From assembly GCF_056712565.1 (NCBI RefSeq), contig NZ_CM160072.1: a stretch of 64,000 nt of DNA, one strand, 5' to 3'. Each line of letters opens with the position of its first letter. Positions within the stretch are counted from its first letter, which is position 1. A program made the position numbers. Below are positions 60,901-63,900 of this stretch, one piece after another.

Positions 60901-63900
60901 CGAAACCTTTGGTATCGGAGGTGCGGCAATGATCGCCGCACCTGGCGTAACGCGCTTTGTCGGTGCGGGTGGCATGGAAGCGGCCAGAGCGGTATCTGAA
61001 GAGATGGCGGAAATTTACCTTGAACGCAATATGCAATTGCAGATCCCCGGCTGGGATTTCCAGGGGGCGTGCCTGGGGCTGGACATTCGTCGCGTGGTAG
61101 AAACCGGCATTACGCCACTCATCAATACCGGTATCGCCCATAAAGAGGCGGGGATCGGGCAGATTGGCGCAGGCACCGTGCGGGCACCGCTGGCGTGCTT
61201 TGAACAGGCGCTGGAAGCACTGGCTGAAAGCATGGGGATTGGTTGAGGAACGCACAATGACGATCATCCATCCTCTACTTGCCAGCCGTAGCGCACCGAA
61301 TTATCGCCAGTCCTGGCGGTTAGCGGGAGTGTGGCGGCGGGCGATTAACCTGATGACGGAAAGCGGCGAACTGTTAACGCTGCATCGTCAGGGGAGTGGT
61401 TTCGGCCCCGGCGGATGGGTGCTTCGCCGCGCGCAATTCGATGCGTTATGCGGTGGATTATGCGGCAATGAACGACCACAGGTTGTGGCACAAGGGATTC
61501 GTCTCGGGCGTTTCACGGTTAAACAGCCACAGCGTTATTGTTTGCTACGTATTACGCCGCCTGCGCATCCTCAACCGCTTGCCGTTGCATGGATGCAACG
61601 CGCGGAGGAAACCGGGCTTTTCGGGCCACTGGCATTGGCGGCAAGCGATCCGCTGCCTGCTGAATTACGCCAGTTTCGTCACTGTTTTCAGGCCGCGCTC
61701 AATGGCGTTAAGACCGACTGGCGGCACTGGCTGGGTAAAGGCCCCGGATTAACGCCAAGTCATGATGACACGCTGAGCGGAATGCTGCTGGCGGCCTGGT
61801 ATTATGGCGCTTTAGATGCGCGCTCCGGTCGCCCGTTTTTTGCCTGTTCCGACAATCTTCAACTCGTTACCACTGCGGTGAGCGTCAGTTATTTACGTTA
61901 TGCCGCGCAAGGATATTTCGCCTCGCCACTCCTGCACTTTGTTCATGCTCTGAGTTGCCCGAAACGTACCGCAGCGGCGATCGATTCGCTGCTGGCGCTG
62001 GGGCATACGTCAGGGGCCGATACGCTGCTGGGGTTCTGGCTTGGCCAACAATTATTACAAGGGAAACCATGAAAACACTGGTTGTGGCTCTTGGGGGCAA
62101 CGCCTTACTCCAGCGCGGTGAGGCGCTGACGGCAAAAAATCAATATCGCAATATTGCCAGTGCTGTACCCGCGCTGGCGCGCCTGGCCCGTTCTTATCGG
62201 CTGGCGATTGTTCACGGCAACGGGCCGCAGGTGGGGCTGCTGGCGTTACAGAATCTGGCGTGGAAAGAGGTAGAACCGTATCCGCTGGATGTACTGGTGG
62301 CGGAAAGCCAGGGGATGATTGGCTATATGCTGGCGCAGGGCTTGAGCGCACAGCCGCAGATGCCGCCTGTCACGACGGTGCTGACGCGCATTGAGGTTTC
62401 GCCTGATGATCCGGCGTTTTTACAGCCAGAGAAATTTATTGGTCCGGTTTATCAGCCAGAAGAACAAGAGGCACTGGAAGCGGCTTACGGCTGGCAGATG
62501 AAACGTGATGGTAAATATTTACGCCGGGTGGTAGCGTCTCCGCAACCGCGTAAAATTCTCGACAGCGAAGCCATCGAGTTGTTGCTCAAAGAGGGGCATG
62601 TGGTGATTTGCAGTGGCGGCGGCGGTGTGCCTGTGGCGGAAGACGGGGCAGGGAGTGAAGCGGTGATTGATAAAGATCTCGCCGCTGCGTTGCTCGCCGA
62701 GCAGATTAATGCCGATGGACTGGTGATCCTCACCGATGCTGATGCGGTATATGAAAACTGGGGAACGCCGCAGCAACGTGCCATTCGCCGTGCCACACCG
62801 GATGAGTTAGCGCCATTTGCCAAAGCCGATGGTTCGATGGGGCCGAAGGTAACGGCGGTGAGTGGTTATGTCAGAAGCCGTGGTAAACCCGCGTGGATTG
62901 GGGCGTTATCGCGGATTGAAGAGACGCTGGCGGGCGAAGCGGGGACTTGTATTTCGCTGTAGTGATTGGGGTATTTGGCAAGAATTAAGGCTCTGAGAAA
63001 GATTCCAAACCCCAAATAAGAACGCGGACAGTCCCCTCGCCCCTGTGGGGAGAGGGTTAGGGTGAGGGGGAAAACTGCTTGCGCATTAGCTTTTAAGCAG
63101 GTTTGTGCACCAGGTTAACTGAACTTGCTCTGCGCCCACATCACGCCGCTGGCATACTCCGGCGGCAGCAGTGGGATTAAGGCTTCCAGCGTCGCGGTCA
63201 GACGCGATGTGTCGCTGTCGGTCAAATTCAAATGCCCCACTTTACGGCCCGGACGGACTTCTTTGTCGTACCAGTGCAGATGCACAAGCGGCAGTTTCAG
63301 CCAGTCATAATTCAGATCGCTACCAATCAGATTGATCATCACCGACGGATTATTCACTACTGGTTGCGGTAACGGCAGATCGGTAATCGCCCGCAGATGT
63401 AGCTCAAACTGGCTGATGCTGGCACCGTTTTGTGTCCAGTGCCCACTGTTATGCACACGCGGAGCCAGTTCGTTGATCAGCAGACCTTGCGGCGTGACAA
63501 AACACTCCATCGCCATCACGCCCACATAGCTCAGCTCCTGCATAATCGCCGACAACATCTCTTCAGCTTGCGCCTGTTGCTGTGCATTGGCCTGCGGGAA
63601 AGCGACGCTGGTGCGCAAAATGCCGTTCTGATGCAGGTTATGCGTCAGCGGATAAAACACGGTGCTGCCATCAAAGCCGCGCGCGCCAACCAGCGACACT
63701 TCACCTGAGAAGTTTATGCCCTGCTCGACAATACATTCGCCGTAGCATTCAGCCGGTAACTGTTCGGTTTCATCGGCGCGTAAACGCCATTGACCGCGTC
63801 CGTCATAGCCACCAGTGCGACGTTTAACAATCGCCAGCTCACCTAAACGATCAAACACCGCAGGCCACTCGCTGTGTTCGGAAAGTAACTGCCACGGTGC

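What the first reader, a model, noticed from the sequence alone, without database searches (positions are those of the whole stretch)
62963..63114. Hairpin-capable G/C-rich extragenic element between ybcF and purK
cccctcgcccctgtggggagagggttagggtgaggggg is not a canonical REP but has imperfect dyad symmetry and G-runs; it could be a small repeat-family member or a bidirectional terminator for the convergent genes.
Basis: seen in the sequence. Interest (0 to 1): 0.2.

Follow-up and report, generated by a model that had tools for sequence, protein, structure and literature searches.

The report
A known BoxC triplex-motif repeat copy
The G/C-rich element between ybcF and purK is an ordinary, already catalogued copy of the E. 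coli BoxC repeat (also called PIT, TMECO or HPG1), a dispersed motif that folds into hairpin, triplex or G-quadruplex forms in vitro, and there is no evidence that it is a transcription terminator.

Summary
The quoted 38-mer is at 63033-63070, inside the 152-bp spacer between convergent ybcF and purK.

It is not a new element. It matches the published TMECO consensus CCCTCNCCC-N3-6-GGGNGAGGG-N3-GGGNGAGGG exactly. This motif is also known as BoxC, PIT and HPG1. The window copy is subtype "A mm": second loop TTA and one stem mismatch.

The identical 36-mer at this same locus is already listed for UTI89 and APEC O1 in Holder et al. 2015, Table S8.

The family is dispersed, with a median of 19 BLAST places per E. 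coli genome in 5425 of 5426 genomes. K-12 copies share about 14-25 nt of 5' flank and about 4 nt of 3' flank with the window copy. That gives a repeat unit of about 55-65 bp. The two hairpins on either side of it are unique to this locus.

Only 237 of 5426 genomes carry this spacer allele. The others sampled carry REP/BIME arrays of variable length at the same place.

The "repeat-family member" reading is right. The "bidirectional terminator" reading is not supported: no U-tract follows the stem on either strand, and published assays found no terminator activity. The element is already known and of low interest.

The parts
62963..63114 (.). Whole ybcF-purK intergenic spacer, in its 152-bp 'BoxC allele' form.
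   Evidence: ORFs and stop codons. Annotation of identical loci. This allele is present in 237 of 5426 complete E. coli genomes; the other alleles sampled carry REP/BIME arrays.
63020..63075 (+). BoxC repeat unit (strongly conserved part). It consists of a 5' extension GAACGCGGACAGTC, the three-block triplex motif, and a 3' GAAAA(C). Weaker A-rich similarity to K-12 copies reaches back to about 63008.
   Evidence: Anchored comparison with 11 K-12 type-A copies. The size agrees with the published 56 bp for BoxC and 63 nt for HPG1.
63033..63043 (+). Block 1, the pyrimidine block CCCCTCGCCCC. It is the Watson-Crick partner of block 2. The G at 63039 faces an A, which is the 'mm' mismatch.
   Evidence: Regex match to the TMECO consensus at 63034-63068. 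Table 1 of PMC4666352.
63044..63046 (+). Loop 1 (TGT). This is the only part that differs from the K-12 type A-mm copies, which have TTT, TCT or TCC.
63047..63056 (+). Block 2, the purine block GGGGAGAGGG. It is the central strand of the proposed purine-motif triplex.
63057..63059 (+). Loop 2, TTA. This defines TMECO 'type A', equal to HPG1.
63060..63070 (+). Block 3, GGGTGAGGGGG. It is the Hoogsteen third strand in the triplex model, or alternatively a hairpin partner of block 1 through a G-T wobble.
   Evidence: Inverted repeat I1, RNA folds, DNA energy evaluation.
63047..63070 (+). Canonical G-quadruplex motif (G3+ N1-7, four tracts), overlapping blocks 2 and 3.
   Evidence: Regex hit; one of only two such motifs in the 64-kb window. 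The HPG1 core GGGAGAGGGTTAGGGTGAGGG of Kaplan et al. is contained exactly.
62966..63015 (+). Locus-specific imperfect hairpin just after the ybcF stop (TTGGGGTATTTGG ... CCAAACCCCAA). It is not part of the dispersed repeat.
   Evidence: Folds (z = -0.8, not significant). The 62-nt left part occurs only at this locus, in 237 genomes, once each.
63071..63104 (.). Locus-specific hairpin AAAACTGCTT...AAGCAGGTTT just after the purK stop. On the - strand the stem is followed by UUUU. It is a weak candidate terminator for purK, or a two-way terminator. It is not part of the repeat.
   Evidence: Inverted repeat I3. Folds of -11.7 and -12.3 kcal/mol. The 48-nt right part occurs only at this locus, in 237 genomes.

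Best explanation
The element is one copy of the enterobacterial BoxC interspersed repeat. The same family is called PIT element by Hoyne/Maher, TMECO by Holder et al. and HPG1 by Kaplan et al. The window copy is subtype A-mm.

Shown here:
- It fits the family consensus exactly.
- It shares the family's extra conserved flanks.
- It lies in an intergenic spacer between convergent genes, as many K-12 copies do.
- This very copy is already listed in a published table for UTI89 and APEC O1.

From published experiments on oligonucleotides with the same three blocks:
- As an isolated single strand, the C-block pairs with the first G-block, and the second G-block lies in the groove as a purine-motif intrastrand triplex.
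- In K+ the G-rich part can instead form a G-quadruplex.
- With the complementary strand present it is ordinary duplex.
- In vivo footprinting found no stable triplex.
- Reporter assays found no promoter or terminator activity.

Inferred:
- At this locus the element has no dedicated role in ybcF or purK expression.
- It is a structure-prone, selfish or neutral repeat sitting in a permissive spacer between two gene ends.
- It would fold only transiently, when the G-rich strand is single-stranded. In UTI89 coordinates that strand is probably the lagging-strand template.
- At most it causes polymerase pausing or local rearrangement.
- The whole 152-bp spacer is one of several alternative alleles at a repeat-prone site. 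Most strains hold REP/BIME arrays there. The allele has been exchanged between lineages by short-patch homologous recombination.
For: Family identity:
- Exact regex match to CCCTCNCCC-N3-6-GGGNGAGGG-N3-GGGNGAGGG at 63034-63068. The consensus and Table 1 are from PMC4666352.
- The sequence is identical to K-12 type A-mm copies except in loop 1.
- The HPG1 core GGGAGAGGGTTAGGGTGAGGG is present exactly.
- The 5' flank ..CGGAC(A/G)GTC and the 3' flank GAAMA are shared with 11 K-12 copies.

Dispersal:
- The core is found in 5425 of 5426 E. coli genomes, with a median of 19 places per genome.
- The left and right thirds of the spacer are single-copy.

Already catalogued:
- The identical 36-mer is listed at UTI89 562046-562081 and APEC O1 563644-563679.
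- The UTI89 position lies in the ybcF-purK spacer.

Function and context:
- Literature statements on the in vitro triplex, the absence of an in vivo triplex, and the absence of promoter or terminator activity.
- CD evidence for a G4/hairpin switch.
- Six of the 10 single K-12 type-A copies I fetched lie between convergent genes.

Locus polymorphism:
- Only 237 of 5426 genomes carry this allele.
- Other alleles hold REP/BIME units, up to 5.1 tandem copies of a 100-bp unit.
Against: - No function has ever been demonstrated for BoxC, so 'no dedicated role' is an argument from negative results.
- The three blocks are conserved in very distant bacteria (Mitsuaria, a Methylomirabilota MAG, Contendobacter) while the loops and flanks differ. 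That pattern hints at selection on the structure, or at a binding factor, rather than neutrality.
- The 152-bp spacer has zero differences between two backgrounds whose flanks differ by 3.7-4.4%. This could reflect constraint rather than recent transfer.
- Triplex and G4 folding cannot be computed reliably with the tools used here. The ViennaRNA G4 term is only a rough estimate.
Confidence: 0.88

Rival explanations
1. The BoxC stem-loop is a bidirectional intrinsic terminator for the convergent ybcF and purK transcripts.
For: - It lies between convergent 3' ends.
- The RNA hairpin is stable: -22.4 kcal/mol on the + strand and -18.6 kcal/mol on the - strand.
- Many family members sit between convergent genes.
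- Kaplan et al. speculate about a terminator role.
Against: - There is no U-run adjacent to the stem on either strand.
- The terminator scan gives one marginal 5-pair hit, against 0.8 expected by chance.
- The published functional study found no terminator or promoter activity and no effect on RNA polymerase.
- 95.6% of E. coli genomes do without it at this locus.
- Other family copies lie upstream of genes or inside operons, for example between pstA and pstB.
Confidence: 0.06
2. The element is a regulatory G-quadruplex / hairpin / duplex switch (the HPG1 model of Kaplan et al. 2016). Its conformation would change with ions or supercoiling and modulate neighbouring genes.
For: - A canonical G4 motif lies at 63047-63070, one of only two in the 64-kb window.
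- When G4s are allowed, the predicted minimum-energy structure uses the four G-tracts: -14.1 against -9.1 kcal/mol.
- CD data in PMC5100583 show a K+-dependent G4 and a Mg2+/Li+-dependent hairpin.
Against: - Holder et al. saw NMR imino patterns that did not fit a G4, and saw duplex once the complement was present.
- No correlation was found with gene class, with distance to ORFs or with operon structure.
- This copy lies at two gene 3' ends, not in a promoter.
- The allele is absent from most strains.
Confidence: 0.08
3. The unit is, or was, a mobile non-autonomous element, or the recognition site of a specific DNA-processing protein. This would be analogous to REP elements and their RAYT transposases. 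It would spread by copy-and-insert rather than by selection for structure.
For: - E. coli copies share flank sequence that the triplex does not need: 5' ..GC.CGGACGGTC and 3' GAAMA. That argues for copying of a roughly 55-65-bp unit.
- Copy number varies widely. K-12 has 23 strict copies and UTI89 has 1. BLAST places number 4-6 against 16-18 per genome.
- Mitsuaria has at least 143 copies, often as inverted pairs.
Against: - No terminal inverted repeats or target-site duplications were evident in the aligned copies.
- No associated transposase is known.
- Holder et al. found no association with transposons, phages or plasmids.
- Only 0.4% of the places found here are on plasmids.
- At this locus the element is embedded in a unique 152-bp allele, not in a clean insertion with an empty-site counterpart.
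Confidence: 0.12
4. The symmetry and G-runs are a chance feature of a G/C-rich spacer.
For: Folding z-scores are unremarkable.
Against: - Shuffles give 0.00 expected matches.
- There are about 95,000 related places in 5425 genomes.
- The element matches a published consensus exactly.
Confidence: 0.005

Closest known systems
BoxC repeat, equal to PIT element and to TMECO type A 'mm' (Bachellier et al. 1990s; Hoyne/Maher 2000-2002; Holder et al. 2015, PMC4666352)
   Same: - The three blocks are identical.
- Loop 2 is TTA.
- The same single stem mismatch is present.
- The conserved 5' (C[G/A]GTC) and 3' (GAAMA) flanks are present.
- The location is intergenic.
- The identical 36-mer at this locus is listed for UTI89 and APEC O1 in their Table S8.
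   Different: Only loop 1 differs: TGT here, against TTT, TCT, TCC or CTT in K-12 copies. This locus is not occupied by BoxC in K-12, which has REPs there.
HPG1 G-quadruplex/hairpin motif (Kaplan et al. 2016, PMC5100583)
   Same: It contains the exact HPG1 core GGGAGAGGGTTAGGGTGAGGG with a C-rich block about 3 nt upstream. It lies between convergent genes, as 6 of the 16 HPG1 members do.
   Different: Nothing structural differs. HPG1 is another name for the same family, described without reference to BoxC.
REP / BIME (PU) elements
   Same: Both are short structured intergenic repeats of E. coli that prefer gene 3' ends. In most strains REP/BIME units occupy this very spacer.
   Different: There is no sequence similarity. 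REPs are simple palindromes with a different consensus and are linked to RAYT transposases. The window spacer has no REP.
Rho-independent (intrinsic) terminators
   Same: A G/C-rich stem-loop downstream of stop codons.
   Different: It lacks the U-tract, and published assays were negative.

Membership tests
BoxC / PIT / TMECO | Three-block consensus 5'-CCCTCNCCC-N3-6-GGGNGAGGG-N3-GGGNGAGGG-3' (Holder et al. 2015). | tested here: met
   Regex match at 63034-63068 on the + strand. The consensus is quoted from the paper.
BoxC / PIT / TMECO | Subtype A: second loop TTA. 'mm': one mismatched position in the Watson-Crick stem (CCCTCGCCCC against GGGGAGAGGG). | tested here: met
   TTA at 63057-63059. 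G at 63039 faces A at 63051 (read). Compare Table 1 entries 7, 9, 15 and 16.
BoxC / PIT / TMECO | Dispersed multi-copy family in E. coli: 23 strict copies in K-12 (Holder), 32 BoxC copies (Bachellier). | tested here: met
   blastn with the 61-nt core found 5425 of 5426 genomes, a median of 19 places per genome and a maximum of 34.
BoxC / PIT / TMECO | The repeat unit is longer than the triplex core: about 56 bp for BoxC, 63 nt for the HPG1 gapped motif. | tested here: met
   The 5' 14-25 nt and the 3' 4-5 nt are conserved between the window and 11 K-12 copies.
BoxC / PIT / TMECO | Always intergenic. | tested here: met
   The element lies between the ybcF stop and the purK stop.
BoxC / PIT / TMECO | The single strand folds into a purine-motif intrastrand triplex in vitro (CD, NMR). 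| not testable with these tools
   Published for type A and type B oligonucleotides, with and without the mismatch, that carry the same blocks. The base-triplet scheme can be written for this copy by hand: G*G-C, T*A-T, and A*A at the mismatch. It was not computed.
HPG1 (G4/hairpin switch) | Core dGGGAGAGGGTTAGGGTGAGGG, fitting G3+N1-7 four times, with a C-rich block about 3 nt upstream. | tested here: met
   Exact match at 63048-63068. G4 regex hit at 63047-63070. Motif quoted.
REP / BIME | A 35-40-nt imperfect palindrome of the GCC(G/T)GATGCG...CTTATC(A/C)GGCCTAC type. | tested here: not met
   No match with up to 3 mismatches. The consensus was recalled from memory. The spacer does not align with the REP-bearing alleles of K-12, Nissle, EC16 or A287.
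Intrinsic terminator | G/C-rich stem immediately followed by a U-rich tract. | tested here: not met
   The sequence after the stem is GAAAACUG on the + strand and GACUGUCCGCG on the - strand. The scan found one marginal hit, no more than the chance expectation.
Rfam RNA families | A covariance-model hit at or above the gathering score. | tested here: not met
   The best hit was Antizyme_FSE at 19 bits against a gathering score of 40, E = 0.28. This is chance.

The most novel reading that the evidence does not exclude
The whole 152-bp 'hairpin - BoxC - hairpin' spacer is a selectively maintained 3'-end module for ybcF/purK, not a passive allele. Three observations leave this open:
- It is at least 99% identical in 235 of 237 genomes.
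- It has no differences at all between two backgrounds whose flanking genes differ by about 4%.
- In UTI89 it holds the genome's only strict-consensus BoxC copy.

If true, BoxC would have a locus-specific function that reporter assays on other copies missed. Examples would be insulating convergent transcription or protecting the mRNA 3' end.
Probability: 0.08. Interest if true: 0.35.

Novelty: already known. Interest (0 to 1): 0.08.

Why it matters
It matters little beyond correct annotation. The element should be labelled as a BoxC/PIT/TMECO (type A) repeat, not as a terminator or a new motif.

The locus does illustrate two known themes. First, spacers between convergent genes in E. coli act as interchangeable slots for different repeat families: BoxC in about 4% of genomes and REP/BIME arrays of one to five units in others. 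Second, BoxC loci are polymorphic between strains, as Holder et al. reported.

The open question of what BoxC is for, given its conservation from enterobacteria to Methylomirabilota, is not made more tractable by this copy.

Tried and rejected
- Rfam at permissive E-values gave only chance hits.
- The promoter scan found none. The terminator scan found one marginal hit, at chance level.
- A search for further copies inside the 64-kb window (pattern search with up to 3 mismatches, and blastn-short) found none.
- REP membership was rejected.
I instead fetched 11 K-12 copies by the published coordinates.
- I asked whether the flanking hairpins belong to a larger repeated unit. They do not: each is single-copy and confined to the 237 genomes with this allele.
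- I looked for a simple filled-site/empty-site pair at this locus. There is none: the alternative alleles are non-homologous across the whole spacer.
- A literature search for 'switched intergenic regions' or 'horizontal regulatory switching' found no directly relevant paper. That concept is cited from my own knowledge only (Oren et al. 2014 PNAS; Thorpe et al. 2018 GigaScience).
- The original Hoyne/Maher papers are not in the library. Their results are quoted as summarised by Holder et al..
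Full report
**1. The observation**

The window is E. coli. The region is 100% identical to ATCC 11775, APEC O1, PA45B and other B2/ST95-type strains.

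Positions 62963-63114 are exactly the spacer between the stop codon of ybcF (+ strand, TAG at 62960-62962) and the stop codon of purK (- strand, 63115-63117).

The quoted string is at 63033-63070 and reads CCCCTCGCCCC-TGT-GGGGAGAGGG-TTA-GGGTGAGGGGG.

- Block 1 is 9/10 complementary to block 2.
- Through a G-T wobble, block 1 is also 9/10 complementary to block 3 (repeat I1).
- With DNA parameters the two hairpins are practically equal in energy, -8.9 and -8.7 kcal/mol.
- The G-rich half is a canonical G4 motif, one of only two in the 64-kb window.

Sub-patterns of 22-24 nt have zero expected chance matches in shuffles.

Folding energy alone is not remarkable against dinucleotide shuffles. The z-score is -0.9 and -1.6 for the two strands of the spacer, and -1.85 for the core. 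What makes the element real is that it is repeated.

**2. What it is**

A blastn of the 61-nt core against 5426 complete E. coli genomes finds related sequence in 5425 of them. The median is 19 places per genome, the maximum 34, and almost all are chromosomal.

A literature search led to Holder et al. 2015 (NAR, PMC4666352). [quoted passage not shown] It defines the E. coli consensus TMECO as CCCTCNCCC-N3-6-GGGNGAGGG-N3-GGGNGAGGG[G/T/C].

- The window sequence matches this consensus exactly at 63034-63068.
- With loop 2 = TTA and one mismatched stem position it is subtype "A mm". That is the commonest of the 23 K-12 copies, 13 of 23.
- It differs from K-12 entries 7, 9, 15, 16, 19 and 22 only in loop 1 (TGT).

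Kaplan et al. 2016 (PMC5100583) described the same set independently, as the G-quadruplex/hairpin motifs HPG1 and HPG2. The HPG1 core GGGAGAGGGTTAGGGTGAGGG is present exactly in the window.

Petrillo et al. 2008 list BoxC as a known E. coli family of 56 bp with 32 copies.

This very copy is already catalogued. Holder's Supplementary Table S8 lists the identical 36-mer at UTI89 562046-562081 and at APEC O1 563644-563679. The UTI89 position lies 71 nt into its 152-bp ybcF-purK spacer, the same offset as in the window.

**3. Extent of the repeat**

I fetched 11 K-12 type-A copies by their published coordinates and compared their flanks in register.

- Conservation continues 5' of block 1. The consensus is ..caAAt.CAAaAacG.GC.CGgACGGTC. 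The window has CCAAACCCCAAATAAGAACGCGGACAGTC.
- Conservation continues 4-5 nt 3' of block 3 (GAAcA in K-12, GAAAA in the window).
- The strongly conserved unit is therefore about 63020-63075, roughly 55 bp. Weaker A-rich similarity reaches back to about 63008.
- This fits the published 56 bp (BoxC) and 63 nt (HPG1).

These flanks are not needed for a triplex. Their conservation shows that the E. coli copies are related by copying of a unit, not only by convergence on a structure.

The rest of the spacer is not repeated:

- The left 62 nt includes the imperfect hairpin at 62966-63015.
- The right 48 nt includes the hairpin at 63071-63104.
- Each occurs only at this locus, once per genome, in the same 237 genomes.

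**4. The locus**

Only 237 of 5426 genomes (4.4%) carry this spacer. In K-12, Nissle 1917, EC16 and A287 the same spacer is filled with REP (PU) sequences. These are non-homologous to the window from a few bases after the ybcF stop to about 10 bases before the purK stop.

The distance between the two matched flanks is about 326-338, 432, 532, 632 or 733 bp in different strains. In EcPF18 the spacer contains 5.1 tandem copies of a 100-bp BIME-like unit. The site is therefore a repeat-prone, hypervariable slot, whatever repeat family occupies it.

The genomes with the BoxC allele fall into two groups over 752 bp (235 of the 237 pass its E-value cut-off):

- 124 genomes are at least 99% identical to the window.
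- 111 genomes are about 97-98% identical.

Against one member of the second group (strain 50579417):

- The flanks differ at 59 of 1600 positions on the left and 39 of 886 on the right.
- The stretch 62948-63126 has no difference at all, and it is the longest SNP-free run in the comparison.
- Within 13-16 bp of the spacer, the flanking states already follow the background. The window agrees with Nissle, and 50579417 agrees with K-12, EC16 and A287.

The simplest reading is short-patch homologous recombination of an alternative spacer allele. Intergenic-region switching is a known phenomenon in E. coli (own knowledge). Purifying selection on the spacer is not excluded.

**5. How it most likely works**

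From the literature:

- Single-stranded oligonucleotides with these three blocks form a class II purine-motif intrastrand triplex in vitro, shown by CD and NMR.
- With the complementary strand present they are duplex.
- In vivo DMS footprinting gave no evidence of a stable triplex.
- The elements blocked DNA polymerase in vitro.
- They had no promoter or terminator activity and no effect on RNA polymerase or conjugation.
- No link was found to gene class, to distance from ORFs or to operon structure.
- TMECO loci are more rearranged between strains than control spacers.
- In K+ the G-rich part gives a G4-type CD spectrum, and in Mg2+ or Li+ a hairpin-type spectrum.

For this copy the triplet scheme can be written directly. 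Block 2 pairs with block 1, with an A-G mismatch at 63051/63039. Block 3 lies antiparallel to block 2, giving G*G, T*A and A*A contacts. This was done by hand, not computed.

My inference is as follows:

- At this locus the element is a structure-prone passenger in a permissive site between two gene ends.
- It folds, if at all, only transiently when the + strand is unpaired. In UTI89 orientation the + strand at 0.56 Mb should be the lagging-strand template. That is an inference from general replichore geometry.
- It has no dedicated role in ybcF or purK expression.

**6. The terminator idea**

Neither strand has a U-tract adjoining the G/C stem. The scan finds one 5-pair minus-strand hit, against 0.8 +/- 0.9 expected. 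The published assays were negative. About 96% of E. coli genomes lack the element here.

The neighbouring unique hairpin at 63071-63104 is flanked by A4 on one side and by T-rich sequence on the other. On the - strand the stem is followed by UUUU. It is the better candidate for a weak terminator of purK, or a two-way terminator. It has a 6-bp stem and a large loop, at about -12 kcal/mol, and is not significant against shuffles.

**7. Wider distribution**

- Mitsuaria chitosanitabida, with at least 143 copies, many as inverted pairs 80-150 bp apart.
- A Methylomirabilota MAG.
- A Contendobacter MAG.
- An unclassified MAG.

In all of them the three blocks are kept while loops and flanks differ. 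This agrees with the published statement that the motif occurs in more than 260 genomes. It is the main reason not to treat BoxC as mere junk, but it is not new.

**8. Verdict**

The "repeat family" reading is correct and the "bidirectional terminator" reading is unsupported. The element is a known BoxC/PIT/TMECO-A/HPG1 copy, and this copy has itself been published. Interest is low.

Noticed in passing
window 62948-63126, compared with L139 (strain 50579417): The 152-bp spacer plus 13-16 bp on each side has no differences between two E. coli backgrounds whose adjacent coding flanks differ by 3.7% (left 1600 bp) and 4.4% (right 886 bp). Among the 235 of the 237 allele-carrying genomes that pass the E-value cut-off, 124 have window-like flanks and 111 have flanks about 97-98% identical. 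This suggests short-patch recombination of the spacer allele, or constraint on it.
   Followed up: partly
ybcF-purK spacer in other strains: L137 163-669; L134, L135, L136; L002 2334-2527: In the other strains sampled, the same spacer holds REP/BIME units instead of BoxC. Copy number varies in steps of about 100 bp, so the distance between the matched flanks is about 330, 432, 532, 632 or 733 bp. EcPF18 has 5.1 tandem copies of a 100-bp unit.
   Followed up: partly
Holder et al. Table S8; places_in_record column: Strict-consensus BoxC/TMECO copy number differs greatly between lineages: 23 in K-12, 11 in O157 Sakai, 2 in CFT073, 2 in APEC O1 and 1 in UTI89. In UTI89 the ybcF-purK copy is the only strict-consensus one. 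BLAST places per genome among carriers of this allele split into about 4-6 and about 16-18.
   Followed up: partly
L011-L117 (Mitsuaria chitosanitabida), L003-L010 (Methylomirabilota MAG), L018-L020 (Contendobacter MAG), L118-L122 (unclassified MAG): The same three blocks (CCCTCNCCC / GGGAGAGGG / GGGTGAGGG) occur in phylogenetically remote bacteria. Mitsuaria has at least 143 copies, often as inverted pairs 80-150 bp apart. The loops and flanks are lineage-specific; for example, Mitsuaria has loop 1 GCTTGC and a 3' flank TCTTC.
   Followed up: partly
K-12 loci L123, L126, L127, L128, L131, L132: Six of the 10 single type-A BoxC copies fetched from K-12 lie between convergent genes: tauD/hemB, aaeR/tldD, frlR/yhfS, zntA/tusA, yjdP/phnP and fimH/gntP. 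This is the same arrangement as ybcF/purK. One copy lies inside the pst operon, between pstA and pstB.
   Followed up: no
window 63026-63034: Immediately 5' of, and overlapping, block 1 is the small palindrome GGACAGTCC. The C(G/A)GTC part is nearly invariant in K-12 type-A copies, but the GGAC half is only partly conserved. Its significance is unknown.
   Followed up: no
window 60776-60798 (+): This is the only other canonical G4 motif in the 64-kb window (GGGATTCGGGTCAGCGGGCTGGG). It lies inside the ylbE coding sequence and is probably incidental.
   Followed up: no
L001 4822-5151 (outside the window, between purE and lpxH in ATCC 11775): ATCC 11775 has an annotated 109-aa hypothetical protein gene between purE and lpxH. 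K-12 has no annotated gene in that spacer.
   Followed up: no
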